The notes beneath the pieces were generated by a model. The model saw nothing but the letters and a program-made list of their open reading frames with translations. It was not told where the DNA came from and searched no databases. A stretch of DNA of 64,000 bases from positions 28,396,001 through 28,460,000 of the forward strand of contig NC_073398.1 of the NCBI RefSeq assembly GCF_028641065.1. Direction: 5' to 3'. Origin of the DNA: Leucoraja erinacea. Its lineage: Eukaryota. Below are positions 481 through 25,235 of the stretch, piece by piece. The position numbers were made by a program, and so were the translations under genes. Each line of letters starts with the position of its first letter. Positions within the stretch are counted from its first letter, which is position 1.

Positions 481-1795
481 CCTCTGTCTATTTGTTGTCT
501 CATGATACACCTAGATTATCTGTATGTCACTGTATGTCATGTTGTTACTTGTGGGTGGAGCACCTAGGCTAATTCCTTGTATGTGAATACTTGGCCAATA
601 AACTTACTAACTTACTTACTTGTCTCATATGCCCCTTCTTTTCAAACCCAACCCCTCTTTCAGTTTCTGTAATCACCCTACCCCATCCCAAATGATTCCA
701 TCTGTGTATCACTTGCACATTACACCCACTTGATTTCCCAATTCCCTCCACTGTTCCCCTTTTGCCCACTATCCCACCCTAATGTGGTTCCACTCACCAT
801 TATCCTTTCTTATCAGATTCTATAATCTACCCATGTACCCATGTACCCATTATCACCTCCTCAGCTTCAGGTTCATCTCAGCATTCCTCATCTGGGCCCA
901 CCTATTACTTAAGGACACAAAGTGCTGGGGCAACTCAGCGGGTCAGGCATCATCTTTGGAGAACACGGATCACTGACGTTTCAGTTCGGGACCCCACTAC
1001 AGACTGATCATTAGTTTGAAGAAGAATCCTGATATGAAACATAATCTATTACGTTCTCCAGAGATGCTGCCTGGCCTGCTGAGTTACTACAGCATTTTGT
1101 GTTCTTTTGTGTAAATCGGCATCTACAGTTCCTTGTTTCCTCTTTTACTGTACCACTCTACTGCTTTTTTTTAAATTGCTGCTTTTTTCCCTTTTTCCTT
1201 CCGCCCACAATATCTAAAAGAATATGTGATTCTGTTCCATTCTGTTTGTAGTTTGTTTGTTTGTTTGTCTTTTTGCACAAAGTCCGCGAGCATTGCCACT
1301 TTCCATTTCACTGCACATCTCGTATGTGTATGTGACGAATAAACTTGACTTGACTTGACTTTATGCTCTAAATCCTCGACCGCAAACATCGACTGTCTGT
1401 CTGCCGCCACCGATGCTGCTTAACCCGCTGAGTTCCTCCACTAGTTCGTTTTTGCTCCAGATTCCTGCGTTTGCTGTCTCTTGTATATCCAAATATCCAA
1501 ACATTGATTATTATCAACAAGGTTGAATTGATTTTGTGTATTAGAAAGTGCTCAAGCAGAAACAAAGGATCTCTTAAACTATGTAATTACCTGAAGTCAT
1601 TTTAAGCCCCATTTGCACTATCGTTCAAAAATCATTGCCCAGACACATGTGTTAGACCAAGGTTAGACTCTGCTCTCCCAGCAGTGCCACAATTGTTTAT
1701 TTTGCAGCTACCTTTGCAGGCAGCAGTTTGTGAGGATTGTGTTCTGTCCCCAGGCACTCGGGTCTCTAATTGTTTTCAACGTCTTGTGTTTCCAG

Positions 1796-1882
1796 GGTAA
1801 GCTCCAACAAACTGACTGTAAAGTCAGCAAAGAGTTTGAATGCCGTCCTTGAAGACCCAAAGTGCAGGATTGAGACATTATC
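1796..1882 (+). CDS. Internal exon of RI-like LRR (probable NLR-family) gene
   Basis: ttccag acceptor and gtgag donor; 87 nt, phase 2-2; VSSNKLTVKSAKSLNAVLEDPKCRIETL is one RI-type LRR unit. Confidence 0.8.
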
Positions 1883-1977
1883 GTGAGATTTTTCATCACA
1901 TAAATCCTCTTGTAAAATTCTCCAAGTTTCTATAGAGCTTCTAATCGCTGACATTTGCCATTTGGTTCCGTTTTCAG

Positions 1978-2145
1978 GTGTGGTACAAACTCTTTTGGTT
2001 CGGCGGGGGCTCAGATTCTGTGGAAAGCTCTGGCACGAAACAGAAGTCTCAAAATCCTTCGCCTGTATGACAATGGGATCACAGTTGAAGGCACAGAGAA
2101 CATGACTCAGTACCTGACATGCAACAAAACTCTCCAGAAACTCTT
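1978..2145 (+). CDS. Internal exon of RI-like LRR (probable NLR-family) gene
   Basis: tttcag/gtaag; 168 nt (2x84), phase 2-2; CGTNSFGSAGAQILWKALARNRSLKILRLYDNGITVEG...NKTLQKL is two LRRs typical of NLRC3/NOD-type exons. Confidence 0.85.
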
Positions 2146-3156
2146 GTAAGTAGCTGGTAGATGTGAGAACATAAGCAGTATATTTGGTAAATGCTCACAT
2201 TGGTTTGTGTGCAATTATTTTGGCGTTGGTGAGTTTGAGATGTGTTATGTAAATGTGAACATGTAGAAACAAGGTGCGGCAGATGATAGTTTACCCGGGA
2301 AAGACACAAAAAGCTGGAGTTATGCAGCGGGTCGGGCAGCATTCCTGGTGAACATGGAAAGGTGACGTTTTGGGACAAGACCATTTGCTTAGACTGATTA
2401 GTCTGAAGAAGTGCCCCGACCCACAGGTTTGATGAATCTGATTGATCAGTTTGATCTGATTGATCAATTCAGACTGATTAAACTGAAGAACGGTCCCAAC
2501 TAGTAACATTATATATCCATGTTCTCCAGGGATGCTGACTGACCAGCTGAGTTACTCCAACATTTTGTGTCTTTCCTTGTATAAATGTGGCTTTTTTTTC
2601 CTTTCCCAGTCTCCATGGGACCCCCTACCACACAAGGAACACTGCTGTTCCAGGCATGACCGTATGTTTTTGTTTCAGTGTGGAGGAGCGGCAGGAAAGG
2701 AGCAATGATTGAGAGAGCATTCTAACTCAAGACTGTGGCTGAATCACCATTAGCAATTGCACTAAGATTAGCTGGCAAAGATTACGCCTTTCGGAAGGAA
2801 CTGGGCACATTCTTAATTGAGTAATAAATAAAAGAAACGAGTTGTGGGTTTGGAAATAGTTTAGATCAGTAAAAGGAAATTAGGATATAAGGGAACTTGT
2901 GTTCAAATTTTCAAATAGAAATAATAATATTTGAAGAAGAAACATTTGCATGGATAAGAGAAAGAGTAGAAATAGTGAGCAAGTACAAAGCTCCCTATAT
3001 GTCTGCACAGTCATGATGCTGAATGGCCACTTCCTCATTGTAGAATTTGATGATTATTAAGATACCGTGAATGAGATGGTTGGAATTTAATTTTCTAATT
3101 CCTGATTTAAATACGATTGAAGCATTCACTAATTTTCATTGCCTTGTTGCTTTCAG

Positions 3157-3541
3157 TTTATGTGTAAACAAACTTGATGACCTTGAACAGAAAAACATTC
3201 AACAAATCGAAAAGCTGTGTCACGGGCTAAAGATCATCACTAAAATCAGAGACGATGAAGAGCTCTTACTCCGAGTTGAAAGTCAGGTTCAAATGCTTCC
3301 CTCCCTTGAGCAGAGTTACAGCACAGAGTGGATGTGCAAACTATTGAAATCCATTCTGAAAGACTTGGGAGATGAGAGTACCATACCTGATGTAGACACC
3401 CGGGTAAGGATACGAAAGATAAAAGCAAATATTAACAAATATCTTCAGAAGAACAAAGACACCGTGATTGATGTTCCAGACACGGAGAATGTGTTGCAGC
3501 TCCATACCCCTGCACCACTTCTTCTGAAACAACTTCCTTAA
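3157..3541 (+). CDS. Terminal coding exon of LRR/NLR-like gene (last LRR plus about 100-aa tail)
   Basis: tttcag acceptor at 3156; phase matches previous exon; LCVNKLDD continues the LRR; open to TAA at 3539-3541. Confidence 0.75.
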
Positions 3542-3557
3542 TCGTTTCTTTTCTACG

Positions 3558-5430
3558 TCACGGTGGTGCAGCAGTAGAATTGTTGCCTTACAGCGAATGT
3601 ATCGCCAGAGACTCGGGTTTGAACCCGACTACGGGTTACATAGACATAGAAACATAGAAATTAGATGCAGGAGTAGGCCATTCAGCCCTTCGAGCCTGCA
3701 CCGCCATTCAATATGATCATGGCTGATCATCCAACTCAGTATCCCTTACCTGCCTTCTCTCCATACCCTCTGATCCCCTTAGCCACAAGGGCCACATCTA
3801 ACTCCCTCTTAAATATAGCCAATGAACTGGCCTCGACTACCCTCTGTGGCAGAGAGTTCCAGAGATTCACCGCTCTCTGTGTGAAAAAAGTTCTTCGCAT
3901 CTCGGTTTTAAAGGATTTCCCCCTTATTCTTAAGCTGTGACCCCTTGTCCTGGACTTCCCCAACATTGGGAACAATCTTCCTGCATCTAGCCTGTCCAAC
4001 CCCTTAAGAATTTTGTAAGTTTCTATAAGATCCCCTCTCAATCTTCTAAATTCTAGAGAGTATAAACCAAGTCTATCCAGTCTTTCTTCCTAAGACAGTC
4101 CTGACATCCCAGGAATCAGTCTGGTGAACCTTCTCTGCACTCCCTCTATGGCAATAATGTCCTTCCTCAGATTTGGAGACCAAAACTGTACGCAATACTC
4201 CAGGTGTGGTCTCACCAAGACCCTGTACAACTGCAGTAGAACCTCCCTGCTCCTATACTCAAATCCTTTTGCTATGAAAGCTAACATGCCATTCACTTTC
4301 TTCACTGCCTGCTGCACCTGCATGCCTAGTTTCAATGACTGGTGTACCATGACACCCAAGTCTCGCTGCATCTCCCCTTTTCCTAATTGGCCACCATTTA
4401 GATGAAAGATTATTACTAATGCATCCACTATTTCTGGAGCTACTTCCTTAAGTACTCTGGGATGCAGCCTATCTGGCCCTGGGGATTTATCGGCCTTTAA
4501 TCCATTCAATTTACCCAACACTGTTTCCCGAATAACCTGGATTTCCGGCAGATTATTTATGTCTTCCTTAGTGAAGACGGAACCAAAGTAGTTATTCAAT
4601 TGGTCTGCCATATCCTTGTTCCCCATGATCAACTCACCTGTTTTGACTGCAAGGGACCTACATTTGTTTTAACTAATCTCTTTCTTTTCACATATCTATA
4701 AAAACTTTTGCAGTCAGTTCCCTGCCAGTTTTCTTTCATAATCTATTTTTCCTTTCCTAATTAATCCCTTTGTCCTCCTCTGCTGGTCTCTGAATTTCTC
4801 CCAGTCCTCTGGTATGCTGCTTTTTCTGGCTAATTTGTACGCATCATCCTTCGCTTTGATACTATCCCTGATTTCCCTTGTTATCCACGGATGCACTACC
4901 TTACCTGATTTATTCTTTTGCCAAACTGGGATGAACATTTTTTGTAGTTCATCCATGCAGTCTTTAAATGTCTTCCATTGCATATCCACCTTCAACCCTT
5001 TTAGAATTAATTGCCAGTCAATCTTGGCCAATTCATGTCTCATACCATCAAAGTGACCTTTCTTTAAGTTCAGAACCATTGTTTCTGAATTAACAATGTC
5101 ACTCTCCATCCTAATGAAGAACTCAACCATATTATGGTCACTCTTGCCTAAGGGGGCACGTACAACAAGACTGCTAACTAACCCTTCCTCATTACTCAAT
5201 ACCCAGTCTAAAATAGCCTGCTCTCTCGTTGGTTCCTCTACAGGTTGATTAGATAACTATCCCGCATACATTCCAAGAAATCCTGTCTATCCTGAGGGTT
5301 CTGTCTATATGGAGTTTGTACGTTCTCCCCGTGACCTGCATGGGGTTTCGTCGAGATCTTTGGTTTCCTCCGACGGTCCGAAGATGTACAGGTTTCTAGG
5401 TTAATTGGTTTGGTAAATGTTTTTTAAAAA
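3558..5430 (+). mobile_element. tRNA-derived SINE split by a CR1 insertion (head 3558-3637, body about 5298-5430)
   Basis: A/B-box-like head ggtggtgcagcagtag...gggtttgaaccc; body ctgtctatatggagtttgtacgttctcccc resumes after the LINE. Confidence 0.75.
3638..5283 (-). mobile_element. CR1 LINE, 5'-truncated with the RT core deleted
   Basis: Minus ORFs 4714-5199 (PLGKSDHNMVEF), 4090-4632 (KSPGPDRLHPRVLKE joined directly to ...RPHLEYCVQFWSP), 3736-4041 (RGDLIETYKI...FFTQRAVNLWNSLP); short-repeat tail at 3638-3660. Confidence 0.92.
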
Positions 5431-8412
5431 ATCAAAGCTCTTCGAAGGAACGCTCTTCGAAGGAAAAATTAAAATACTGGCAGAATTATTTCTGCTAGTA
5501 TTTTTCAAATAAAGAGGTCCATAAAGTGGGCAAATAACATAATATAAGATATTGGGTTGTCAGCACGCAATATCCAACATTTTCATATATTTTATATTTC
5601 ATATATCCAACATCCATGTATTTTTTTTACGGTGGTTGTATTTTTTCAATGCGTGTTTTCTTAATTTCCCAACTATTTGGGAGTTAATTATGCAGGGCCA
5701 AGCCCATCAGTGTCCAGTGACAGTAATTCCACGTAATGTTGCCTATCTCAGAGAGCCTTTGCAGTGGCATCAGTGTGGCCTTCAGCACTTCTTCCAGTAG
5801 AAACAAGCTTCCAAACATGTCTTCACATTCACTTAGTCTACCTTAGAGCACTTCCCGGGTGAGAAAGTTTCCATTGCAACCAGGAGGTAAATGTTGACAG
5901 TCTACAAATAATACGAAGCCGCATTTTGCGTACGGTTTTAGAGAACAAGACAAGTGCAAATATGCATTAAGTGTAGTGGAGCAGAAAATGCCACAGGTGT
6001 TGCTGTCAACAACTGTTAGGGGAAAAACAAGTGCAAAAAGGTTGAAGTTAAAGTCAACAAATGTTCCAAGGTAGACCAAGTGAATGTGAAGAATGTTTCT
6101 CTGTCCAATATGTGTGACATTACATAAAACTAACTGCTGTAATTAATGATTGCGTTCAATCTATCTTTGTAATCAAATTGACAAGATCTGACTATGCACT
6201 ATATGAAGGCATATTATTATGGCTGTAGATGGAGGCAAAGTAACAGGATACAGTGCTGATAGACACAAAATGCTGGCGTAACTCAGTGGGTCAGACAGCA
6301 TCTCTGGAGAAAAGGAATAGGTGACACTATATGAGAGTCAGGAAGAGGAAACGAGGGATATAAATGATGTATATGCATATCTTTCATTCATTAATTCTAT
6401 ATCTGTCTACATCACCGTCTATATCACCCATTTCCCTTTCCCCTGACTCTCAGTCTGAAGAAGAGTCTCGGCTCGAAACGTCACCTACTCCTTTTCTCCA
6501 TAGATGCTGTCTGACCCGCCGAGTTACTCCAGATTTTTGTGTCAACCTTTAGTTTAAACCAGCATCTACAGTTCTTTCCTACACAGGACACAGTGCAGAT
6601 AATGATGAAGCAAGCCTTCAAATGATGGGAATGTATCTGTTAGAAATACAAAATACAAACATATACAACATCAAATACCAGAGCTTTCCACTGTAGCAGC
6701 AGTTAATGGAATGGGGGACAACAGTTGAGCTAAAATCATGGATAAGATGCATATGCCATGCACTGGTGAATAATTGGCTGGTCATTGCACTCTGTTTGCT
6801 ATGACTAGTAGTGATTGAGAAACAACACCTTGAGTAGAAAAGCAGCAAAAGTTAATGTGTAAGATTTTAGTTCAGCAAGAATGAGAGGCATTGAGAACAT
6901 GAATTGTCAGGACAGTTGTCATTTGAAGTTCAAAGCCGGTAGCCGGACCTGTTGCATTAAATGTGTTTAACTTCTGGCAAACCTAAACGACAATATTAAC
7001 CAAGACTTCATTTCCTAGCTTCTACACGCTCAAACTGATTGTATATAAATCCACAAATTACAACAGTAATGTAGATCATAATCGAAATTTAATGGCATTT
7101 AGATAATATAATTATATTGTATTTTAATCAAAATCTAAATCAAATTAGCAGTAGCTGGAGGGAGGATCAATTCATGGGGTGCATAAGAGACAGTTTTCTG
7201 AATCATTATGTGGAGAAAGCAACAATGAATAGACTATTTTAGATTTGGGATACTGCAATGGAAAGGGTTACATGATCTAAGTGACTATTGGGGAAAAGAG
7301 ATCATAATAAGATAGAATTTTGTTCAGAGTTGAAAGTGGTTTAGTTCAATCTGAAGATAGCATCCAAACAGGGATATAGAAATCACAAGCATTAGGGATG
7401 AGGTGGCCTGATAGGTTGGGGAACAACATTAATAAGTGTAACAGTAAAAAAGCAATAAAATAAGCAATAAAAAATTACCACATAGTTTACTTGTGATATT
7501 TATATATCTCTTTGTGGAATAAAATACAGCAATTATTACCATCATGTGAACGATAACAATATGTCAAAGGAAAGGGTTTATGTTACTAAATAAAGCAGTT
7601 GGCTTGAGGTTTGGGAACGTTATTAGGCACGTGGACATGTGGGGAATGGAGGGATATGGATCACATACAGACAGAGGAGAATAGTTTAATTTGGAATCAT
7701 GATCATGAACAAAGGGCCTGTTCCTGTGTTTTACATTCTGTCTACGTTCTAAAACCACAAGTCATGAAATAAATCAAGTCAAGACTTGACTTGACTTGAT
7801 GAAATAAATGCTTTATGTACTTCAAAGTACAGCAAGGTAAGACCAAGGTATTGACAATGAAAATGAGGGGAGACTGTAAGAATAGCTGAGAGATAAATAT
7901 CCTGTAAGAGTTTCTAAAGGTACGTAAAGAGGAAAATATTAGTTGAAATTAAGGTGAAAACACTTTGCAGGTGTTAAAGAAAACTTTAAAACACAGCACC
8001 AAGATCAGGCAAGGCGATCGAGACTTTATTAAAAGCATCAAATACAGTGATCAGTGGGAGCACTAGGAGTTGCTCCCTGAAAACAGATTCGTCTACTCCT
8101 TATATACAGAATTTTACTTTGTTATGTCGTTTACTATAGCAGGCACGTGTGCATTTTTCCTTCTGCTGCATGATCTTATAACAATTATAAATCATGCACC
8201 TCTGTAAAATACATATCAGTTTTGCTGAGCCCAATTCCACCCCACTGAAGATTAGCCAATGTTCTGTTACCCTTTCAACCTCTTTTAATTGTTTTTGAGA
8301 TTGCCATTTGTTCTTTGACAACAGAACAGAATCTGACTAAAGTGGACAGCATTAAGTGCCAGGTACACAGGCTCAGTTTCAACCTTCTTTAAAGTACAAA
8401 ATTATTATGACA

Positions 8413-8742
8413 CGTGGTGGCGCGGTGGTGTAGCGGTAAAGTTGCTGCCTTACAGCAAATGCAGCGCTGGAGACCCGGGTTCGATCCCAACTATGGGTGC
8501 TGTACTGTACGGAGATTGTACATTCTCCCCGTGACTTGCGTGGGTTTACTCGGAGATCATCGGTTTCCTCCCACACTCCAAAGACGTACAGATTTGTAGG
8601 TTAATTGGCAGTAAATGTTAAAAAAAAAATTGTCCCCAGTGTGTGTAGGATAGTGTTAATGTGAGGGGATTACTGGTCAGCACAGACCCGGTGGGCCAAA
8701 GGGCCTGTTTCCGTGTTGTATCTCTAAAGTAAACTAAACTAA
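8413..8742 (+). mobile_element. tRNA-derived SINE (HE1/V-SINE-like); other copies at about 15135-15365, 29035-29310(-), 31920-32232, 34295-34575, 34590-35010, 36545-36852, 46260-46480, 53340-53815, 57895-58195, 59480-59770(-)
   Basis: ggtggtgtagcggt...gggttcgatccc A/B boxes, shared body gttctccccgtgac...ggttaattggc, (taaac)n tail; repeated throughout the window. Confidence 0.85.
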
Positions 8743-8919
8743 TGAAGAGGACTTTGAGCATTTTTAGGCACTCTACCTGTCCTCATCCCCTGCTGTCTTC
8801 TTGAAATATTTGCAATTTATTTTTGACACAGATCAGATATCATCTATGGAAAGTGAAACAGAGTATACATTATAGATAGGAGATCCCTCAGCAAGACGTT
8901 TGATGAGGTTTTGCACGGT

Positions 8920-9628
8920 GGATGGCTCTGGAAGGCTTGGTCACGTGGGATCCAGAGAGAGCTAGCCAACTGATTACAGAATTGGTTTGATACAGAATAA
9001 GGGTGGTATGCCTCACGATCAGTGCTGGGCCCGTTGCTGTTTGTGGTTTACATCAATAATTTGGATGAGGATGTACAAAGCATAATTAGCAAGTTTGCAG
9101 ATGACACTAAAGTGGGAGGTATTGTAAATAGTGAAGATAGTTATCAAAAATTACCTCAAGTGAACTGAGGAATGGCTAATGGACTCTAATTACAGGTAAG
9201 TGTGAGATGTTTCATTTTGGGAAGTCAAACCAGGGCAGGACCTTCACAATAAATGGTAGGGTCCTGGGGTGTATGGTGGGCACAGGAATCGAGGAGTACA
9301 GGTACATAGTTCTCTGAAAATGGTGTCATGGGTAGATCTGGTGGTCAAGAAAGCTTTCAGTATATCGGCCATCATCAGTCAGGGTATTGAGTATAAAGGT
9401 TGGGATATTATGTTACACTAGGACAAGACATTGGTGGGGCCACATTTGGACCATTGTGTTCAGTTTTAGTCTCCCTGCTATAGGAAAGATGCTGTTAAGC
9501 TTGAAAGACTGCAGAGAAGATTTATGAGGATGTTACCAGGACTTAAAGGCATGAGCAACAGGGAGAGGTTGGGTGAACTAGGGTTTTATTCCTTGGAGCA
9601 CAGGAGGTTGAATTGTGATCTTCTAGAG
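8920..9628 (+). mobile_element. Degenerate CR1 LINE RT/3' fragment
   Basis: aagtttgcagatgacactaaa (KFADDTK), ccacatttggaccattgtgttcagttt (PHLxxCVQF) with frameshifts. Confidence 0.85.
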
Positions 9629-10060
9629 CAGTGGTTCCCAACGTGGGGCGTATGCCCAACAGGGGGGCAATTTGATTTTTAAGGGGGGCAATTGAGGAGG
9701 TCTGGGTCCAAATTTTTGATTTTTTATTTTTTGGATTTTCCATCAGGTAAATATATGTAGTTTATGTTTCAGATGTTATTTTGAGTAAATATTTTTTTGG
9801 GGTAAAAAAGGTCTTTATTGTGTAGTTATTACATAATCACCGCGCCATCGCTCTTCATGCACGTCGCACGAAGCGCGCGAGGTCATGGGAGAACCTTATT
9901 TATTGAATTGGATTTAGAAATGCGATTCAAAGAGCTTTTGCTAAGTTACCCTTATAATATCTATTTCCTCTGTTTTCTCTCAAGGGAAAGCAAGGGGGGG
10001 GCATCAGGATTTTAGAGGTGATTAGGTGGGGCATGGCCAAAAAAAGGTTGGGAACCACTG
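9629..10060. mobile_element. Non-autonomous hAT (Charlie-like) MITE
   Basis: TIRs cagtggttcccaac / gttgggaaccactg; perfect 8-bp TSD ttctagag at 9621-9628 and 10061-10068. Confidence 0.9.
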
Positions 10061-10392
10061 TTCTAGAGGCATCCAGAGAACCGGTCTCCACCGCCCTCTG
10101 AGGCAGAGAATTCCACAGACAGGGAGAGTCAAACGACTGCAAATGCTGGAATCTGGAGCAAAAAGTACTGGAGTAAGTCAGCGAGCCAGGCAGCATCTGT
10201 GGAGACAACGGACAAGGCGACGTTTCGGTTTGGGGTCCTTCTTTCGGACGTTATGTTGATCACAGAAGGTGAATTAAAGTGAGCGCGTCCGTGGTCAGTT
10301 GGGCTGTCACTGATCTTGAACCTGTTGCTTAGAATGCACCAAAGATAGACACAAAATGGTGGAATAACTCAGCGGGACAGGCAGCATCTCTG

Positions 10393-11257
10393 TAGGTATG
10401 TTACAAAACCTACCTGAATCGTCATTGGGAATCTGCCCTCAGCCATGTCGGCGATTTTGGCGCTGTTTGGAGGGGGCGGGTTTTAAACGCGATTTTTACT
10501 AGGCTGTACTAATCGCACATGTTCAGCCTAGTAAATCATTAACGAAAAATCGCTGCAAGACCCGGTCGCAAAAGGTATTATTAGTTTTATAGGCCTCGAT
10601 AATATAGTTATAATAGTTTTTTAAAATTACTCTCTGATTTCGCAACCTCTCGCAGCCCCAGGGTTTTATAAAGCAAACAATTAAAGGTATGTACCTTATT
10701 TTTACATTAAATGGGGCATATATATAACCCTGAATATCAAGTTATCTATAACGAATAGTTCATTTTGGGCTTTTTATATCCCGCAGTATTTTTCTCGGCA
10801 TTTGAGGGCACTAATCCAGCGCGCTGTCAACGTTCTAAACCAGCGCGTTCCACATGAACCCACTAGAAAGCCGATTTAAATGGGCATTTATTTACAGCAA
10901 TTGAACACTAAATTCCTTCCATTTGGCCTATAAATTAATGTAAATTAGATATAAAAATCATGTTATATTGTGAATTATTTGTGAATAATCTTTGGACACT
11001 TAGGCTATTTAAAAATGTTAATCTTTCCTTAAGAAATGGGCGTTTGACTATCCAAGATCACAGCTTTTTTGTAATGTCCATTGAAAATCAATAGGGAACA
11101 AGATGCTAATTTCCGAGTATGAAAATGGTCATAACTTTTTTAATACTTGAGATATGAAAGTGAATTTGGTGTCAAATTAAACTTATTGTTATGCTTTATC
11201 TGATGGGATAAATTGCAGACTTGATTTTTTTAATCTCAAAATTTTGTAACATTGCTA
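10393..11257. mobile_element. Non-autonomous DNA transposon with 7-bp TSD (possibly hATw-type)
   Basis: Imperfect TIRs taggtatgttacaaaa / ttttgtaacattgcta; TSD atctctg at 10386-10392 and 11258-11264; interrupts a Penelope-type repeat that rejoins across it. Confidence 0.8.
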
Positions 11258-11459
11258 ATCTCTGGAGAGAAGGAATGGGTGACGTTTGATCGAGACCATT
11301 CTTTAGGCTGAAGACGATGCTGCTGCCCCGCTGAGTGAATCCAGGGTCTGTCTTCGGTTTAAACCAGCATCTGCAGTTCCACGCTTAGAATGCACCAACG
11401 TGTTGGACGTGGAGAGCCTCTCTTGCTCTAATATTTTTGGTGTCCATTGCTGTCCCGTC

Positions 11460-11689
11460 AGCTGATCGCGGGGAGGTTGGTGAGATGACACCGCCTCTGG
11501 TGAGTCACCAGGGAGCGGCCACAGCCCGTCCTATAGACGAGGCGCAGCGTGAGCCGGGCGGAGCTTCCCCTAACGCGGACAAGGCCAATGCAAAGATCCT
11601 ATAGCGGAGTCTTTGGACAAGGCCAAAGCAAAGATCCCAAAGATCCTATAGCGAGCTCCCAGGAAGCGCGGAGTGAAAGCTTACACTCG
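11460..11689 (+). promoter_or_regulatory. Candidate CpG-rich promoter and non-coding first exon of the legumain-prodomain gene
   Basis: Local CpG/GC enrichment, AP-1-like tgagtca about 11501, GC box gggcggagc about 11556, donor cg|gtgagt at 11690. Confidence 0.5.
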
Positions 11690-12997
11690 GTGAGTTCAGT
11701 TCCCATTTGGGGGTATCCCTCCCCCAACCTCTGTATCTGAATATGTAAGATTTATTCTGTTGAAATTGACCGTGGATTATTGTAAATCGCTTTTTAATGT
11801 GGAAAGAAGTATCAATGTAACAAATTTAAAGTGTAATCCAATTAAAAGACGTTTGAAGAAGGGTCTCGACCCGAAGCGTCACCAGAGATGCTGCCTGTCC
11901 CGCTGAGTTACTCCAGCATTTTGTATCTGTTTTTGATGAAAACCAGCATCTGCAGTTCCTACATTAAAGATGTTTTCTCCTGGGAAGAACATGATTAAAT
12001 TGGTAAATATAATAGCTGGGATGTTGATGATCAGGGAGGTTGGTGGGATTAGGGAATCATACAGTGTAGGGCGAGGGGGACGAGGCACAAAGTGCTGGAG
12101 GACTCAGTGGGTCAGGCAGCCTCCCCCAGTGGCGGGCACAGACACACGATGTTCTCGGTCGAGACCTTTCTTCAGCCTCCGGTCAGGTTTTGCCCCCTCG
12201 TGTTCAGTTTAGGAAAAGCCTGAAGCGGAAACTCTGACAGAATTCCTTGATCGACATCCCCTCTTCACATGGTACACTTCCTTATCTATGTATCTCCCTC
12301 TCCCCTGACCCGAAATGTCACCCATTCCTTCGCTCCAGAGATGCTGCCTGTCCCGCTGAGTTACTCCAGCGTTTTGTGTGTATCTGGCAGAAATGCCACT
12401 GGCCCCCTCCTCCCCGCGGCGTGAGATATCTGTCAGGTCACAAGATTGTCACAAGATTGTCACATTTCATGCGGTGGCGTCGATGCAAAATCCTCAAGAC
12501 GAGTCTTTTGGCGAGAGAGTGACAATCTGCCAGCCTTTTTTGATTTGATTCCCGGCTCAGTTATCTGCTGGTTACCAGGAAGCAAATACACTGCCATAGT
12601 CCCTACAACACAACAACCATTCTGCATCGCACGCTGTCTCAGCAGCCGTGTAGATCTCGGAAATAAGACACAAAATGCTGGAGTAACTCAGCGGGGCAGG
12701 CAGCATATCTGGAGAGAAGGAATGGTTGACGTTTCGGGTCGAGACCCTTCTTCAGTTTCTCGGGGTATTTCTGAGCTCATGAAACGATATGCATGAGAAT
12801 GAACTGTAAAATACTCTGAATGTTTTCATGTTTAAGTCACTGATTAGGAGAATTCTGATGATAAATATTGATTCCTGCTCCTTGAGGTGTCCAGACTCTC
12901 TGTGCTGCTCCCTTAGGATTGGAGAGCTTTGTTTCTTTGTGAGAATTACAATATTCCCATGTTGCTTCCTGCTGCAGGTGCGGGCAAACCCACAGTA

Positions 12998-13123
12998 ATG
13001 GCAGGAATGGAGACTGTGGCACCGTGCGACGTACCTGTTACTCGTCTTGAGAATAGGATCAAAGCTGCTAAGGATCCAGAGGAGAAGGAGAAGCTGCAGA
13101 AAGACCTGGACCATCTCCTTGAG
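12998..13123 (+). CDS. LGMN-like: Legumain-prodomain-only protein, coding exon 1 (exon begins 12978)
   Basis: tgcag acceptor at 12977, gtaATGg Kozak context, gag|gtaatg donor; APCDVPVTRLENRI...LQKDLDHLLE aligns with legumain SPDVPLTIMKRKL...IQRHLD. Confidence 0.85.
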
Positions 13124-13546
13124 GTAATGGTGCAAAGTTGTTCCTCTACCCTGGGCCCCATACCAGGTATCTCCACCCATCGGGAACCAGCAAGGAGACT
13201 GTTGGATGGTGCTAGTCAGTGTGGGGCAGACATCCTCACTAACCTGCCTACAGTGCAGGGAGACACACACTGGTGGGCGTGCTGCTGTCAAATGGGGCTC
13301 ATGCTCCAGGGAATTCTTCCTTGTTCCCAGGACGGGCAGTAAAATGATGGATTCCCAGTCTTTGTCTACAGTTTAGTTTATTGTCACGTGAACCGAGGTA
13401 CAGTGAAAAGCATTTGTGGCGTGCTATCTAGTCAGCGGAAAGACAATACATGATTACGTAAATCGCGCCATTTACAGTGTACAGATACACGATGTGGGTC
13501 CTTCCTGTGTGGACGGGGTGAACCAAACAGCTCTGTTGTGTTGCAG

Positions 13547-13717
13547 GTGAGGGAGCTAATCCGACAGACAGTGCGAGAGATTGTTACTCTGGCCACGGAC
13601 TCCGAGGAACAGGCTGAGCGAGTGCTCGGCCCCAAGAAGCGTCTCACGGAGCGGGAAAACTACCGCTCTGCGGTGGAGTATTTCCAAATGCGGTGCTTTG
13701 ACTGGCACAATCCAGAG
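13547..13717 (+). CDS. LGMN-like: Legumain-prodomain-only protein, coding exon 2
   Basis: ttgcag/gtacgt; 171 nt; VRELIRQTVREIVTLA...FQMRCFDWHNPE resembles legumain ARHLIEKSVRKIVSLL...FRTHCFNWHSPT. Confidence 0.9.
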
Positions 13718-14938
13718 GTACGTCTGCGATGCATTCACATAGTACAGAGATAGATGCCAAGGTGAGTTCATGCGGCCATTGTCAAGTCTATATTATCAAG
13801 AGGCCAAAGAGAAAATATATCAAAAGCTGGGTCAACGTGTTAGCTTTAAGGAGGGGCGAGAGGCAGGGTGGTTGGGGAGTGTATTCTGGAGCATGAGGGT
13901 GAGATAGCAGAGGGTTTGGCCACCGATGATGGTGCGGATGAAGACAACGAAGCATATACTGTAGCAGCTGAGGGGGTGTGGAAACACTGCGGGAGTTGCA
14001 GGGTTACGGAGTTGTCGAGGTGCAGAGACCTGGCCAAGGAGGGTTTTACACCATTGTAAACAAGGGTAGGTCACTTGGACCCAGGTGTTGTGATGGTAGG
14101 CCATGACGTGGATGGCAGAAGTTTGGATGAGCTCGAGGTACTGCAGCTGAGAGACTTGGCTGCAACCAGGAGATCAATCGTTAAATCAAGAATAGAGGGA
14201 TAATATCCTGGGTGAACAGGGATGGGGACTAGGGTCTGATGAAGGGTCTCAACACCAAACCTTCATCAATCCAGGTTCTTCACAGATGCGGCCTGACCCT
14301 CTGAGTTACTCCAGCACTTTGTGTCCTTTTGTGTAAATCAGCGTGTCTGCATTTCCTTGTTTCTACTGGGTGGCCCTCGTCACCCACTCTTCCAACACAC
14401 ACAGGCATCAAAGAGGTTAAAATCCAGAAATAGCTTCCTACCTGCAGTTCAACCCCTGAATGATAACCCCCGCACCTGTAGGATAGATGCTTGGGTGACA
14501 CACCTACAATCAAAACCCCACACACTGACACTATACCCTGAGGAGTCCCATCCATTGGGAGCGAAAGACACATGGCCAGTCTGGCTCTGCTTCAATCACC
14601 TCAGAACATGGGTCGGACGGTGCAAGCCTTCATGCTGAAGTGGGGGTTCAACAACGAACAACTGAATGTGACTACGGGGAGGCAACCCAAACTAGTTGAG
14701 AATTTTGGAGTATCTCATGGTTGTGAATGGTGTGGAAAAGAGGAATTCCTCTGTTCCAGTCTGGGCATTGTAAATAATTGTTCTGATGTATATTGTTACA
14801 GTATGTTACTTAATGATGGGTAGGAAAGTGAGTTGTGGGGATGACATAAGGGTGACACAAAAAAGGGTGCGCATGGCCAAAGATTGGATTAATGTGAGAG
14901 AATGTGGGGTAGTCCAATGTTGTGCTTTGTTGTTACAG

Positions 14939-15006
14939 TATGAATATGCTCTTCACCAGTTGAGTCCCTTCGTCAATTTATGTGTGGAGAAGATCCCACT
15001 GACACG
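14939..15006 (+). CDS. LGMN-like: Legumain-prodomain-only protein, coding exon 3
   Basis: ttacag/gtacag; 68 nt; YEYALHQLSPFVNLCVEKIPLTR resembles [23 protein letters not shown]. Confidence 0.9.
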
Positions 15007-16027
15007 GTACAGTAATACCCAACTCTCTCTCTTTGCTCAAGCAATCAAAGCAAATAACATCTGGAATTAACTCTTAACCGATCATTGATCCCTTTAACAG
15101 AAGGCCTGATGGAATATAGTGAGCTGGGCAGTGCAATGTGTATATTCTGTATGTTCTCCCTGTGATCACTTTGGCTTCCTCCAAGTGCTCTAGTTTCCTC
15201 CCACATCCCAAACTCGTGTAGGTTCATTTGCCTCTGTAAATTGCCCCTAGTGTGTGAGAAGGTGGGATGGCATGGAATTAGTGTGAGCGGGTGATTGATT
15301 GTAGGTTTGGACTCCGTGGGGTGAAGGGCTTGTTTCCATGCTGTATCTTTAAACTAAACTAAACAGCATGGTAGTATGTTTCTGTGCCACTTAATGTAGT
15401 GGATGTTATTTTATGTAATTAAACTGATCGGGTCTATTATACTCAGAGTAATGGGGGCTAAGCTCCGCAATACACATATTCAACAGGGATATCATGAGTT
15501 AGGTCAGGTTACCCAGAGTAAAAACAGCAATAGTCTTTGTCAAACTTGAAATAATCATCAAAATCAGCCTTCGAGTCTGAATTAGCAGCAGGCTAACTTT
15601 GTACAGTCTTGTCTTTTTGAAGCAGGGAATCCCGGGCAGTGGGATAGTTTACAGCCATTGACCCAGCACAATCAAAGCCTTTTAGTCATCAGTTCAGGAC
15701 CATTCAAGTCAGAGAATTAAGGAAAGTGCTGGTAATATAATCATGAAAGTATTGTCATTCAAGCTGACAGTATTGAAAAGCATTAAATATACGGACTTAT
15801 TTTTGTCCAAAATAACTGTCTCCGCTTTGTCATCTTGAATCAAACATTGGTTGAAATTGTTCATTTTGGTCTCTTGTCTTGGAAAGGAGCCATCAAAATT
15901 GTAACAGATCTTTGCCTCTTTTCTTAACAAATGTAGATTGTGTTCGATTTTTTTCTAAAGCTTTTTTTTCCTGTGCTATCCCCCTGTCCACGAGCTGCAT
16001 TGTAATCACTCCTTTGTTTTTAAACAG

Positions 16028-16073
16028 GATCAAGGAAGCAATTGACCAAGTCAGTGAAAAGCTGAAGAAATGA
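16028..16073 (+). CDS. LGMN-like: Legumain-prodomain-only protein, last coding exon
   Basis: aaacag acceptor, phase 2; IKEAIDQVSEKLKK* resembles IKLSMDHVCLGHY*; spliced CDS 411 nt = 136 aa + stop. Confidence 0.85.
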
Positions 16074-17076
16074 AGAGTTGGCTCTCCTCATCTTCAGCAC
16101 AGCAGAAGGAGGGACCCTTAAGGACCTGTCCTCCCTCGGCCTGTGTGCTTTCCAACTGGAATTGTAATTTTTTTTAGAGTCTTTCTCTCTCTCTCTGCTG
16201 GTCAGATCATCTTGCTTGCAATAACTGGGAGGAGGTTTCTGCTGAAAGCAAATCATGGGAGACAAAAGCAAATTATAGACAGCTTTTATACTTTAAATAA
16301 TCAAATGATTACACAATGATACCAATGCTACCTCAGATGGTAGAAACATTTCTGTGCCATTAATATTTTTAATGTTGAAAATTCCTTCTCAATAGGTATG
16401 GGGTCAGATTAGTTAAATATACTTGATTATCACAAATCAATTTACTATTATTTTTTTTTCCAAATCTTTATTTTAAAGATTTAAACAGCTTCTGAGTGGC
16501 CTACCTTGATTTCTCTCACCATTCACATCTGCACTGTGGGGCAATTTAATCAGAAGTTGACAATCGGGCTTCACTAAATCTCCTTTAGGCAACGGCGAGG
16601 CTTAATTTTGCAGTGATTTTAGTCATTTCTTACCAGCAGGGCAGGCGGTTAGTTCTACGGTGGCTGAGCCTTGAGAACAAGACCCAGACTGATTCATAAG
16701 GGCATTTCTGAGAGAGTGCAGTATTTGTGTGCATGCCGACTTCTGGGTGAGATTTATACCAAAGCCATCCAACCTTTACCAGGATGCAATGTAAAAGACC
16801 CTATCCAAATATTAGTGAAGATGAAAGTAGACAAAAATGCTGGAGAAACTCAGTGGGTGAGGCAGCGTCTATGGAGCGGAGGAAATAGGCAACGTTTCGG
16901 GTCAAAACCCTTCTTCAGAAGTGAAGATGAATGTGGATTCCCGGCCAGCGTTTACTGCTAAACGAGACCTTTTGGCCTGTCCTTTGTTTAATATCATTCT
17001 GTGTACAAACATTCCCAATGGTAACTACGGTTCAATTGGCTGGGATGGCTTCAAGAACAGTGCTTGAGAAATGTCA

Positions 17077-17082
17077 AATAAA
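17077..17082 (+). terminator. Candidate polyadenylation signal of the legumain-like gene
   Basis: AATAAA followed by T-rich sequence about 1 kb after the stop. Confidence 0.4.
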
Positions 17083-18868
17083 TTTGAATCTTTAAAAAAA
17101 ATTATTGCTTTTATTTTAAGTAAATGAATTGATTAAGTCATTCTTCTGATTATTTGTTCTCTGTGTTAGTATTTCTAATTATTGCTCCTCTGATCACATT
17201 ATGTTTTCAAAAATTAGAGTTTTCCAATACAGAGTAAAGCAGCCACATGTGAGGACTAGGACTTGTAGCAACTAATGCTTCCATTAAGAGGAGGAGAAGA
17301 AGTAGGATTGCAAGTTGCTTATTTATTTGTCGAATCATTTGTGGGCATATTTGCTTCTAAATCAAGAGATTTCGGATTTAAGTCTAACTTCAGGAACCTG
17401 AGCACACATTAGAACATGCCAGATTGTTGGAGATAACCAAGTATGCCAGCTGTTGAATTTATCTCCACCCTTACTCGCAGGCGAATGGGGTTAGGAGGGA
17501 GTGATAGATCGATCAGCCATGATTGAATGGCGGAATAGACTTGATGGGCCGAATGGCCTAATTCTAATCTATTCCTATGATCATATGAAACAGGCCATTG
17601 TTAGCTGTGGCCTATGTGAAAACGAGTGTAGACGTGGAGTACATCTCATTTCCAGCTTCCTCCTCCCTACTACAACCAGTCTGAAGAAGGAGCCTGAACT
17701 GAAACGTCACCTGTCCATTCCCTCCACAGAAGTACCTGAGTTCCTCCAGCACTTTGTGTTTTGTCCACTATCCTGCAGGTTGTCCTTGATGAGCTGATGC
17801 TTTGACTAAATCTCTTTTTCTTTAGTCTCGCCGAGATTCAGGTCTGTGTTTTGACAGAGAAAGAGAGGCTGGAAATGAGGGTAAAATCAGATTACAGGCA
17901 TTTGCGTTGGACACTGTCCAGGAATGCAAAGAAGGAGACAGATAGAGTTCTGAAGGGTTCAGGTAAACCGGAGCAATTATTTCAGTAACAGTGTTTTTCT
18001 AACACACAATCTCCTGGCAGGTGAGTTTTAAGATGCCATTGCTACTTTAGGTAGCTTTGCTCGTGAGAGAGTGAGAATAGACCTTGCACATCCCATCGTG
18101 CTGTGTTAGAACCACGCCTCATATATAACTAATGTCTGACCCTTGCACAAAGTCAATGGCAATAATGAACTCTAGATGCTTTTCATCTTCTGTAACCAAA
18201 GCTCTGCTCAGTTCCAGAATGATTAATATCAAAGCTAGAAGTATATCTGAGAAGAGGGGAATCTAATTTCTCCGACAGCTGACAAATTCATTAGCAATGC
18301 ACTGTCAGCTCGGCCGTACAATATGCCCAACAAATGTCATCCCAAAGTGAACTAATGTTGAATCGATTATTTATTTGTTAGGTTTCTCCTCTGCCGTATT
18401 GTGCTGAGTGTCAGTCTCTGTCTTAGTACCTCGTGCCAAGTGGCTGCTCTCCAGCTACTGATTAAACAAAATGAGTACAGGTAGGATATTCATTCATGCG
18501 GGTAACTCGATATCTTCATTTAGGCTCTGCGCACAAGTGCTTAAAGCAAAGTGATTGATTCTCCTGGTTGACGACTGTACGGGGGAGGGCATATTGAATG
18601 GTTGCCTCACTGTCAAGTTCAACAAGTCAAAAGCCAAAGAACAAATTGATTGATTGATACTTTATTGTCACGTGTACTAGGTACAGTGAGATTCCTTCTT
18701 TGCAAACAGTACAAGCGTGCAAGAGTCGCCATGGAAAGGACGCTGACAAGGTTACAAAAGTATTTAATATAATGCCTCTTCCTTCTCTCAGAGAGGTAAA
18801 CGCTGCTTGGTCCATCACAGCTACTGACCTTCAGAAGGATTTAGAGGAGGTGCTGTCCTAAAAGCCAA

Positions 18869-24030: not shown

Positions 24031-24689
24031 TACTATTTTATTCCCCTTTTCAAATCTGATTCTTTCTTCATAGATGCGGCCTGACCTACTGACAATTTCC
24101 AAGCAGTTTGCACCCCAGCGGTATGAACATTGACTTCTCTAATTTCAGGTAGTCCTTACTTTCTCCTCCCTTTCTCATCTCTCCCTCAGCCCTCTGGCTC
24201 CACCTCTTCCTTTTCCCCTCCCACCCTCACATCAGTCTGAAAAAAGATTTCGACCCGAAACGTTGCCTATTTCCTTAGCTCCACAGATGCTGCCTCACCC
24301 GCGGAGTTTCTCCAGCATTTTTGTCTATCTTCGATTTTCCAGCATCTGCAGTTCCTTCTTAGATAATCTTTACGTTTTACTTCCTTTCCCATCCCCCCAC
24401 CCACCATCGCAGGAAATTTCCTGTCTGATTCCCATTCTTTCCCACAGGATTCTCTTCCCGGCCAATCCCTTCCCATTTATGGTGGACACGCTGTTGTAAC
24501 TCAGCGGGACAGGCAGCATCTCTAGAGAGATGGAATGAGTGACGTTTTAGACTCTTCTCTCCATAGATGCTGCCTGTCCCGCTGAGTTACTCCAGAATTT
24601 TCCGTGTCTATCTTCGGTGTAAACCAGCATCTGCACCTCCTTTCCTGTACACACCTGTAACAGCTGAATGAGGTCGAAGTGGGGCAGGT

Positions 24690-25145
24690 TGTGGGACGTG
24701 CAGTGAGTGGCGGACAGTGATGGGCGTCGGCAAGGTTTTAACCAAAGATCTTTGGTTTTAACGGTAGGCATTGAATGGCAGGGGCGGATCAACGAGGTGT
24801 GGAGAGAGGAGAACCATTGGTGAAGAATCTGGACCGCAAGAAGCGGGCGGGACCATCACCGGCGCCTCCCCCTTCCAGGTTGGTGTTGGCCCCACAGCGC
24901 CGGCTCGCCAGTTTCACGTTAAGTTCAGGAGGAGGAGGGGAGGTGGCGCTGCCGCCGCTGCTCCATTCCACTGGCAGGTAATTGCCTCGCCGCGAAATTA
25001 CAGCCTCTCCAAACCCTCAGCCTTCTCTAATCCCCAGTGTAACCGGAGACGGAGTACGTGGTTTTAATCCGACTGATACAATTTTCGCAGCTCAGCCTCG
25101 TCTGATTGAGTGTGGACTTGAGACCCAGAGGGACATTCGCCGACC
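24690..25145 (+). promoter_or_regulatory. CpG-island promoter/5' UTR of TSPAN33
   Basis: CpG-rich; GC boxes ggggcgga about 24781 and gggcggga about 24845, directly upstream of the ATG. Confidence 0.65.
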
Positions 25146-25235
25146 ATGGCTCGCAGCCGCACTCTGGGGGAGGATTTCACCTTCGTCAACCCCGTGGTTA
25201 AATATTTACTATTTTTGTTCAACATGCTGTTCTGG
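25146..25235 (+). CDS. TSPAN33: Tetraspanin-33 coding exon 1
   Basis: accATGg; MARSRTLGEDFTFVNPVVKYLLFLFNMLFW; gtaagt donor. Confidence 0.93.

What the first reader, a model, noticed from the sequence alone, without database searches (positions are those of the whole stretch)
12978..16073. Stand-alone legumain prodomain (AP+LSAM) gene with no protease domain
Seen: four exons with canonical splice sites join into an uninterrupted 136-aa ORF homologous only to the C-terminal third of legumain. It starts at a good Kozak ATG (12998). No catalytic-domain exons (DHG, EACES, HVMQYG motifs) and no signal peptide were found between the upstream gene's stop (3541) and 12978, which is largely repeats. 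Known: the legumain LSAM domain has a death-domain-like fold and modulates AEP activity. Inference: a partial duplicate that has become an independent, probably intracellular, non-enzymatic protein. It could be a trans-acting legumain modulator or a death-fold-like adaptor.
Basis: partly seen in the sequence, partly recalled or inferred. Interest (0 to 1): 0.85.

Follow-up and report, generated by a model that had tools for sequence, protein, structure and literature searches.

The report
Stand-alone legumain cap gene in fishes
Sharks and rays carry a separate, spliced, well-conserved gene that encodes only the regulatory cap of the protease legumain, without the enzyme part or an export signal, and it likely works inside the cell as a free brake on legumain, a role that is untested.

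Summary
Observation confirmed. Four exons give an intact 136-aa protein matching only legumain's activation peptide and LSAM prodomain, identical to a little-skate RefSeq 'legumain-like' model. It is single-copy. Canonical LGMN lies on another contig, and no catalytic exon was found in 124 kb around the gene. Spliced contigs of about 1.3 kb encode it whole. A CpG island with a likely non-coding first exon (ending 11689) lies upstream.

Orthologues occur in 22 shark and ray species, and LSAM-only models in sturgeon, bonefish and piranhas. Trees keep them outside vertebrate LGMN, so the duplication is ancient. All 22 lack the Asn323 cleavage site and two of four LSAM cysteines, which fits a cytosolic protein. 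21 of 22 have Gln at the residue that plugs the S1 pocket, as plant legumains do; this skate has Pro.

Best guess: an uncleavable cap acting on legumain in trans (0.4). Main rival: an adaptor or decoy for the neighbouring Ig-transmembrane NLR, to which catshark models fuse it in frame. No paper on the gene was found, and the scan had not noted it before.

The parts
11301..11750 (.). CpG island, likely promoter of the gene
   Evidence: One of 5 clusters in the 64 kb window with CpG o/e >=0.6 and GC >=0.55 (28 of 1265 sliding windows). Another cluster sits just before the first coding exon of the downstream tetraspanin. The promoter role is inferred.
11549..11689 (+). likely non-coding first exon (5' end not determined), donor at 11689/11690
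   Evidence: The N-terminal extension of Amblyraja RefSeq model P0007 maps to 11549-11686 (E 3e-13) and continues into 12978 as this donor predicts. Joined in skate, the frame has a stop before ATG 12998. The joint was not displayed in the read lay.
12978..13123 (+). first coding exon (ATG 12998): activation-peptide segment, helix 6, start of LSAM
   Evidence: 146 nt entering in phase 1, unlike the 195-nt phase-0 homologous exon of LGMN.
13547..13717 (+). coding exon, LSAM core
   Evidence: 171 nt like the LGMN exon, 38% identical to it.
14939..15006 (+). coding exon, LSAM
   Evidence: 68 nt against 65 nt in LGMN, same phases.
16028..16852 (+). last exon: coding to the stop at 16073, then 3' UTR to at least 16852 (AATAAA at 17077)
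   Evidence: Contig pieces of two runs begin at this acceptor with 72 and 273 further letters in front (records 7 and 14).
1797..3541 (+). last three exons of the upstream gene (Ig V-set, NACHT, LRR); internal donor at 3403/3404 that catshark models use to fuse the NLR to the LSAM exons
   Evidence: In skate that join is out of frame and hits a stop after 6 codons.

Best explanation
This is a separate, spliced, single-copy gene, conserved across sharks and rays, that encodes only legumain's activation-peptide helix and LSAM cap, and its product likely stays in the cytosol, where it would dock on a legumain catalytic domain in trans as an uncleavable lid. Shown: gene structure, absence of catalytic exons, spliced contigs, conservation, LSAM-like predicted fold, loss of the autocleavage Asn and of two LSAM cysteines. 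Inferred: (1) a legumain gene duplicated before sharks and bony fishes split; (2) one copy lost its leader, its disulfides and, in these lineages, its catalytic exons, and gained a non-coding first exon; (3) the protein starts just ahead of the residue that plugs the S1 pocket in the zymogen, so it would block, and perhaps stabilise at neutral pH, legumain that reaches the cytosol or nucleus, or a leaderless legumain in lineages that have one.
For: Gene is real. It is 73% identical (99 of 136) to the catshark orthologue, against 60% over 577 residues for the NACHT block of the neighbouring NLR in the same species pair. The predicted structure has pLDDT 81 and 7 helices; all 8 Foldseek matches at E<=0.001 (of 246) are prolegumains. 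Position map (human number = position + 298, with Asp309 and Asn323 as anchors) over 22 elasmobranch sequences: the Ser307 position is Gln in 21 of 22; Asp309 and Arg342 are kept in 22 of 22; Asn323 is lost in 22 of 22; Cys378 and Cys429 are lost in 22 of 22, while all 8 LGMN rows have Asn323 and Cys378. Ser307 of the human activation peptide sits in the P1 pocket (PMC4357240, passage), and a conserved Gln plugs S1 unproductively in plant legumains (PMC7489914, section 6); that the two positions are equivalent is my recall. Cleaved LSAM stays bound to the catalytic domain and stabilises it at neutral pH (PMC8491156, PMC9788469, passages). Legumain is reported in cytosol and nucleus (PMC9579014, search listing only). 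There is no hydrophobic leader: best 9-residue hydropathy 1.1 against 2.7-2.8 in two canonical legumains.
Against: This skate has Pro, not Gln, at the plug position in 13 of 13 near-identical variants, and the 4 fish rows have Ser or Asn. Net charge over positions 9-131 is -1 to -7 in all 22 elasmobranch rows, against -1 to +5 in 8 LGMN rows, whereas LSAM binding is described as positive on negative (PMC9788469, PMC4357240). Arg403 of the double-arginine motif is His in 22 of 22. 24 of 46 invariant positions differ from the LGMN majority, which fits a new partner. The only catalytic legumain found in the skate genome is the leader-bearing LGMN on C9, so the two would normally be in different compartments. 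Localisation is inferred from sequence only. Several database models carry N-terminal extensions unlike each other (P0007, P0044, P0045, P0046, P0048; hydrophobic in P0046 and in bonefish P0050).
Confidence: 0.4

Rival explanations
1. The protein no longer touches legumain. It is a cytosolic helical adaptor, or a decoy domain, for the neighbouring Ig-transmembrane-NACHT-LRR receptor, working in trans in skates and also as a fused C-terminal domain in catshark.
For: The two genes are neighbours in skate and in Scyliorhinus torazame (consecutive locus tags). Four RefSeq isoform sequences of the catshark NLR run in frame into the LSAM exons, three of them to its end. LSAM is described as death-domain-like (PMC7489914, PMC8491156). 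24 family-specific invariant residues and a reversed net charge suggest a new surface. An Ig V/C1 gene also lies upstream.
Against: The same splice is out of frame in skate, and a skate NLR contig runs through the NLR's own stop (record 8). Only 1 of the 5 longer hits was such a fusion, all its members from one species, and an older annotation of that species keeps the genes apart. Adjacency is known for two species only.
Confidence: 0.25
2. It is a cytosolic protein with a new role unrelated to legumain or the NLR, for example a redox- or metal-sensing scaffold built on its three invariant cysteines (positions 10, 92, 114).
For: All three cysteines are invariant in 22 of 22 elasmobranch rows although their recalled disulfide partners are gone, and Cys10 is new. 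The gene has a CpG-island promoter.
Against: The fish LSAM-only rows lack Cys10 and mostly the other two, so this would be elasmobranch-specific. The activation-peptide segment is kept intact, which such a role would not need.
Confidence: 0.22
3. These exons are the 3' end of a longer gene (a full legumain or a secreted isoform) whose 5' exons are missing from the assembly or lie far upstream.
For: 12978 is a splice acceptor. The 5' joint was not displayed in the read lay. Unnamed full-length leaderless legumains group with these proteins in one tree (97/95).
Against: No catalytic exon in 124 kb with a working positive control, and a different gene lies 9.4 kb upstream. The acceptor and phase differ from LGMN's. 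Twelve Logan variants have longest contigs of 1242-1373 nt; exons 2-5 up to 16852 take 1210 nt, which leaves no room for about 780 nt of catalytic sequence. Fifteen clusters of 133-141 aa start at the same Met region.
Confidence: 0.05
4. A transcribed pseudogene or drifting relic, like human LGMNP1.
For: Eight positions vary among 13 near-identical variants. dN/dS could not be computed. Protein searches cannot show broken copies.
Against: Introns are kept. The frame is intact in 22 species from skates to carpet sharks at 72-95% identity, with 46 of 136 positions invariant, and it is better conserved than most of the neighbouring NLR.
Confidence: 0.03

Closest known systems
Prodomain (activation peptide + LSAM, Pfam PF20985) of legumain / asparaginyl endopeptidase, family C13; PDB 4FGU, 4NOK
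   Same: Sequence (E 1.5e-23), predicted fold (TM 0.74), last three intron phases, Asp309, Arg342, Cys390, Cys412.
   Different: Own gene; no catalytic domain, no leader, no Asn323, no Cys378 or Cys429, Arg403 replaced, net negative charge; Gln at the Ser307 position in 21 of 22 elasmobranchs.
Stand-alone propeptide-like protease inhibitors (CTLA-2, crammer and salarin for papain-family enzymes; PBI2 and POIA1 for subtilases) - recalled, no call
   Same: A separately encoded homologue of a protease prodomain that could act in trans.
   Different: Different clan and fold. None was found described for legumain in the searches run, and inhibition is untested here.
CARD-only and PYD-only proteins (COP, ICEBERG, POP), partial duplicates of clan CD protease or adaptor genes - recalled, no call
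   Same: Enzyme-less partial duplicate of a clan CD protease gene that keeps a domain called death-fold-like, in an immune neighbourhood.
   Different: No death-fold protein was listed by Foldseek or VIA (inconclusive); homotypic binding untested; far older.
Released C-terminal fragment of mammalian legumain (osteoclast inhibitory activity; PMC9788469 passage)
   Same: Non-enzymatic activity is reported for the same part of the protein.
   Different: That fragment is cut from a secreted precursor. This protein is encoded alone and has no leader.
Human LGMNP1 pseudogene (PMC9788469 passage)
   Same: A second legumain-derived locus that may tune LGMN.
   Different: LGMNP1 acts as an RNA sponge. 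This gene keeps a conserved spliced frame.

Membership tests
Peptidase family C13 (legumain) | Caspase-like catalytic domain with His-Cys dyad (PF01650) | tested here: not met
   No PF01650 on the protein; no catalytic exon in 124 kb; genome matches only on C9.
Peptidase family C13 (legumain) | N-terminal signal peptide | tested here: not met
   Hydropathy proxy 1.1 against 2.7-2.8 and an in-frame stop before the ATG in the inferred 5' exon. No dedicated predictor was run.
Legumain prodomain (AP+LSAM) | PF20985 above cut-off and LSAM helical fold | tested here: met
   34.5 bits against 25.2; Foldseek TM 0.74 to 4NOK and 4FGU; VIA Z 11.0, rmsd 3.3, 128 aligned to OaAEP1, next row Z 5.3.
Legumain prodomain (AP+LSAM) | Two conserved disulfide bonds | tested here: not met
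   Two of the four cysteines are lost in 22 of 22. That each bond loses one partner rests on the recalled pairing 378-412 and 390-429; the papers seen say only 'two disulfide bonds'.
Legumain prodomain (AP+LSAM) | Autocleavage site Asn323 and double-arginine motif Arg342/Arg403 | tested here: not met
   Asn323 lost 22 of 22; Arg342 kept 22 of 22; Arg403 is His 22 of 22 (motif from PMC8491156).
Stand-alone propeptide-like inhibitors (recalled class) | Separate gene homologous to a protease prodomain | tested here: met
Stand-alone propeptide-like inhibitors (recalled class) | Binds and inhibits the cognate protease in trans | not testable with these tools
   Needs a biochemical assay.
Death-fold adaptors (DD/CARD/PYD/DED-only proteins) | Structural match to death-fold domains | tested here: inconclusive
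   Clear matches were legumains only; unlisted families are not excluded.
Death-fold adaptors (DD/CARD/PYD/DED-only proteins) | Homotypic assembly with a death-fold partner | not tested
   No job was run for this.
Pseudogene of LGMN | Disrupted frame or loss of introns | tested here: not met
   Intact spliced frame, conserved in 22 species.

The most novel reading that the evidence does not exclude
Jawed vertebrates had a second, cytosolic legumain lineage, so far unrecognised. It survives as leaderless full proteases with the His-Cys dyad in some animals and as cap-only genes in sharks, rays, sturgeon, bonefish and piranhas. The cap-only protein is a pseudo-substrate bait for legumains in the cytosol, host or parasite, and reports to the adjacent membrane-anchored Ig-NLR, much as an integrated decoy does, with catshark fusing the two.
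Probability: 0.12. Interest if true: 0.88.

Novelty: new variant of a known kind. Interest (0 to 1): 0.62.

Why it matters
How legumain is held in check outside lysosomes, and whether LSAM has a life of its own, are open questions. The isolated human LSAM domain was only recently made recombinantly, and its disulfides were the obstacle (PMC12320161). Here is a natural LSAM without the usual cysteine set, conserved since before sharks and bony fishes split and filed in databases as 'legumain-like'. It gives a direct test of trans inhibition and neutral-pH stabilisation, and a possible scaffold for a legumain inhibitor. It also adds context to the reported positive selection on elasmobranch LGMN (PMC5278576), and it points to two further unstudied things: leaderless legumains and a membrane-anchored Ig-NLR.

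Tried and rejected
Complex prediction of a manatee legumain catalytic domain with the skate protein: no verdict (score 0.00, alignment not used, stand-in partner); not evidence either way.

Run search: no RNA holder listed. The read lay over 1700-17400 was swamped by repeats and its tables were cut, so the 11689-to-12978 joint, the start site and dN/dS-type variants were not displayed. dN/dS was not computed because no orthologous DNA was available. The ESM Atlas gave no usable hit. Foldseek and VIA listed no death-fold protein among clear matches.

Split-gene idea (a catalytic-only partner in skate): own-genome searches with PF01650 and three leaderless legumains hit only C9 LGMN. These searches go exon by exon and are not sensitive: PF20985 missed this gene itself.

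One clade of elasmobranch LSAM-only + fish LSAM-only + leaderless legumains: 97/95 (46 rows), 92/90 (26 rows), under 80 once the four cysteine columns were dropped. The catalytic-domain tree left the leaderless group unplaced. I treat it as suggestive only. The AU test group was named after the first tree had been seen. Rows for trees were chosen by hand from the hits, and the unspliced tail of P0053 was trimmed.

Literature: searches (listings of 1-25 papers each) showed no paper on an LSAM-only gene, and search 87 with the passages of PMC8455134 showed none on the Ig-NLR. Most subscription papers are not held. The original prolegumain structure paper was not held. The supplement of PMC12107551 could not be read; it might say whether its 585-nt transferred 'Legumain' belongs to this family.
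Full report
Observation. They give 136 codons from ATG 12998 to TGA 16073. The product is identical to the little-skate RefSeq proteins XP_055509298.1/299.1, named 'legumain-like'. It carries only PF20985 and aligns to human prolegumain from about Ser307 to the end. The window lies on contig C22. The only other clear match in the genome is the canonical LGMN on C9, 38% identical in the shared exon (8 matches, of which 3 are this gene, 1 is C9 and 4 have E above 0.3). PF01650 matched only C9 (3 of 10 candidates). A catalytic profile from 26 legumains recovered 8 C9 exons and nothing better than E 0.13 in the window plus 60 kb upstream.

A gene of its own. Position 12978 is a splice acceptor, but not LGMN's. 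The homologous LGMN exon is 195 nt and enters in phase 0; this one is 146 nt and enters in phase 1; the three later introns keep LGMN's phases. A CpG island at 11301-11750 is one of five such clusters in the window. It holds a donor at 11689, and the Amblyraja model P0007 uses the homologous exon (E 3e-13). Joined in skate, that exon leaves a stop before the ATG, so it is likely non-coding. Of 20 cluster members 15 were listed; 12 are Logan-only variants whose longest contigs are 1242-1373 nt and encode the whole protein, which spans 3.1 kb with introns in the genome, so they are spliced. In the read lay, contig pieces of two runs from different studies begin at the last exon's acceptor with 72 and 273 letters in front, as splicing predicts. 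Both runs are only guessed to be RNA, but one of them skips an NLR intron exactly. The 5' joint itself was not displayed.

Conservation. A profile search gave 16 hits among 881 candidates: 15 clusters of 133-141 aa from skates, rays and sharks, and one whale-shark prediction running into a retroelement fragment. With cluster members this makes 22 species, 72-95% identical to skate, with 46 of 136 positions invariant. Skate and catshark share 99 of 136 residues, while the neighbouring NLR shares 51-76% by segment and 60% over its 577-residue core. Broken copies would not show in protein searches. The exhaustive search (182 hits, 150 listed) added LSAM-only database models from bonefish, two piranhas and two sturgeons (10 proteins looked up), 40-48% identical to skate against 30-38% for canonical LGMNs. 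Their genomic context was not checked. No chimaera, lobe-finned fish or tetrapod orthologue was recognised, but most hits are unnamed.

Origin. In every LSAM-region tree vertebrate LGMN, from skate to manatee, forms a group without these proteins (92/97, 95/91, 94/91 and 87/82). A clade of elasmobranch LSAM-only proteins plus skate LGMN is rejected (AU p=0.0008). The duplication therefore likely predates the shark/bony-fish split. Unnamed full-length legumains without a leader but with the His and Cys of the dyad (P0066, P0068) join the LSAM-only proteins at 97/95. Support falls to 92/90 with fewer rows and below 80 without the four cysteine columns, and the catalytic tree does not place them. 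A single cytosolic lineage is thus possible, not shown.

Anatomy. The model has seven helices, pLDDT 81, pTM 0.74. All 8 Foldseek matches at E<=0.001 are prolegumains, and VIA's one clear match is a plant prolegumain (Z 11.0, rmsd 3.3, 128 aligned). Against human numbering, in 22 elasmobranch rows: Asn323, Cys378 and Cys429 are lost in all; Arg403 is His in all; Asp309, Arg342, Cys390 and Cys412 are kept in all; a new Cys sits at 308 in all; the Ser307 position is Gln in 21. LSAM has two disulfides (PMC12320161, PMC7489914, passages). By the recalled pairing each has lost one partner, and the fish LSAM-only and leaderless rows also lack Cys378 and Cys429. With no hydrophobic leader, this points to a reducing compartment.

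Mechanism. In human prolegumain Ser307 of the activation peptide binds in the P1 pocket (PMC4357240, passage). In plants a conserved Gln plugs S1 unproductively (PMC7489914, section 6). Cleaved LSAM stays bound and keeps the enzyme stable at neutral pH (PMC8491156, PMC9788469, passages). A protein that begins eight residues before this plug, has Gln there and cannot be cut at Asn323 looks like a free, uncleavable lid, and I commit to that at 0.4. Against it: this skate has Pro there in 13 of 13 variants; the fish rows have Ser or Asn; net charge is negative where LGMN's is neutral to positive; Arg403 is gone; and the only catalytic legumain found in skate carries a leader.

The NLR link. The upstream gene is the orthologue of a catshark 'NLRC3-like' protein with leader, Ig V-set domain, a hydrophobic stretch read by eye as transmembrane, NACHT and LRR. 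Among 7999 longer candidates 5 hits passed: four full legumains and one catshark NLR-LSAM fusion. Its cluster holds four fused RefSeq isoform sequences and one unfused older model. The fusion uses a donor inside the NLR's last exon. Skate has that donor at 3403, but the join to 12978 is out of frame, and a skate contig reads through the NLR's own stop. An adaptor or decoy role for this receptor is the main rival (0.25).

What is known. The gene model is in RefSeq and UniProt under automatic names. Seven literature searches listed no paper on it. The 2026 preprint on shark legumains (10.64898/2026.06.04.730232; abstract and methods read, part 1 of 3) took the top locus per species and removed propeptides. 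PMC5278576 (passages) reports positive selection on elasmobranch LGMN and its passages mention no truncated paralogue. PMC8455134 (passages) does not contain the word legumain. The scan's earlier notes held nothing on this sequence or place. Stand-alone prodomain regulators are a known kind in other protease families (recalled), so this is a new variant of a known kind: not a member of family C13 as a peptidase, but a prodomain-only relative.

Verdict. A real, old, conserved and apparently undescribed gene; its function is inferred only. Interest 0.62.

Noticed in passing
window 1797-3541; L006:8187-9893; L007:9250-9618: The upstream gene encodes an NLR with an Ig V-set domain ahead of NACHT and LRR. 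The catshark orthologue has a leader and a transmembrane-like stretch between them, so it looks like a membrane-anchored NLR. One search and the passages of PMC8455134 showed no description.
   Followed up: partly
proteins P0063, P0066, P0068, P0198 (unnamed): Full-length legumains without a signal peptide. P0066 and P0068 keep the His and Cys of the dyad, have no N-glycosylation sequon in the catalytic domain and lack LSAM cysteines: candidate cytosolic asparaginyl endopeptidases. Species not known.
   Followed up: partly
L009:5210-5500 and 8387-8698 (+): Exons for an Ig V-type and an Ig C1-type domain (read by eye from the translation), 30-35 kb upstream of the window; suggests a small immune gene cluster.
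   Followed up: no
G000:C9:1171137-1173099: The expected 82-nt third coding exon of canonical LGMN could not be read: an acceptor and a few matching codons run into a degenerate duplicated stretch. Probably an assembly error; a real lesion is not excluded.
   Followed up: partly
P0006 and P0007: Amblyraja radiata has two near-identical LSAM-only models on different chromosomes (105 Mb and 44 Mb contigs), whereas this genome has one copy.
   Followed up: no
window 12998-16073: Eight amino-acid positions vary among 13 near-identical database variants: high polymorphism, or close sister species.
   Followed up: no
window 25147-52619 (+): Tetraspanin gene with its own CpG island at 24601-25200; resembles TSPAN33 (name recalled, not tested).
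   Followed up: no
PMC12107551, Table 1: A 585-nt 'Legumain' orthogroup is reported as horizontally transferred between catfishes and Paramormyrops. Its short length raises the question whether it belongs to the LSAM-only or leaderless family; the supplement could not be read.
   Followed up: no
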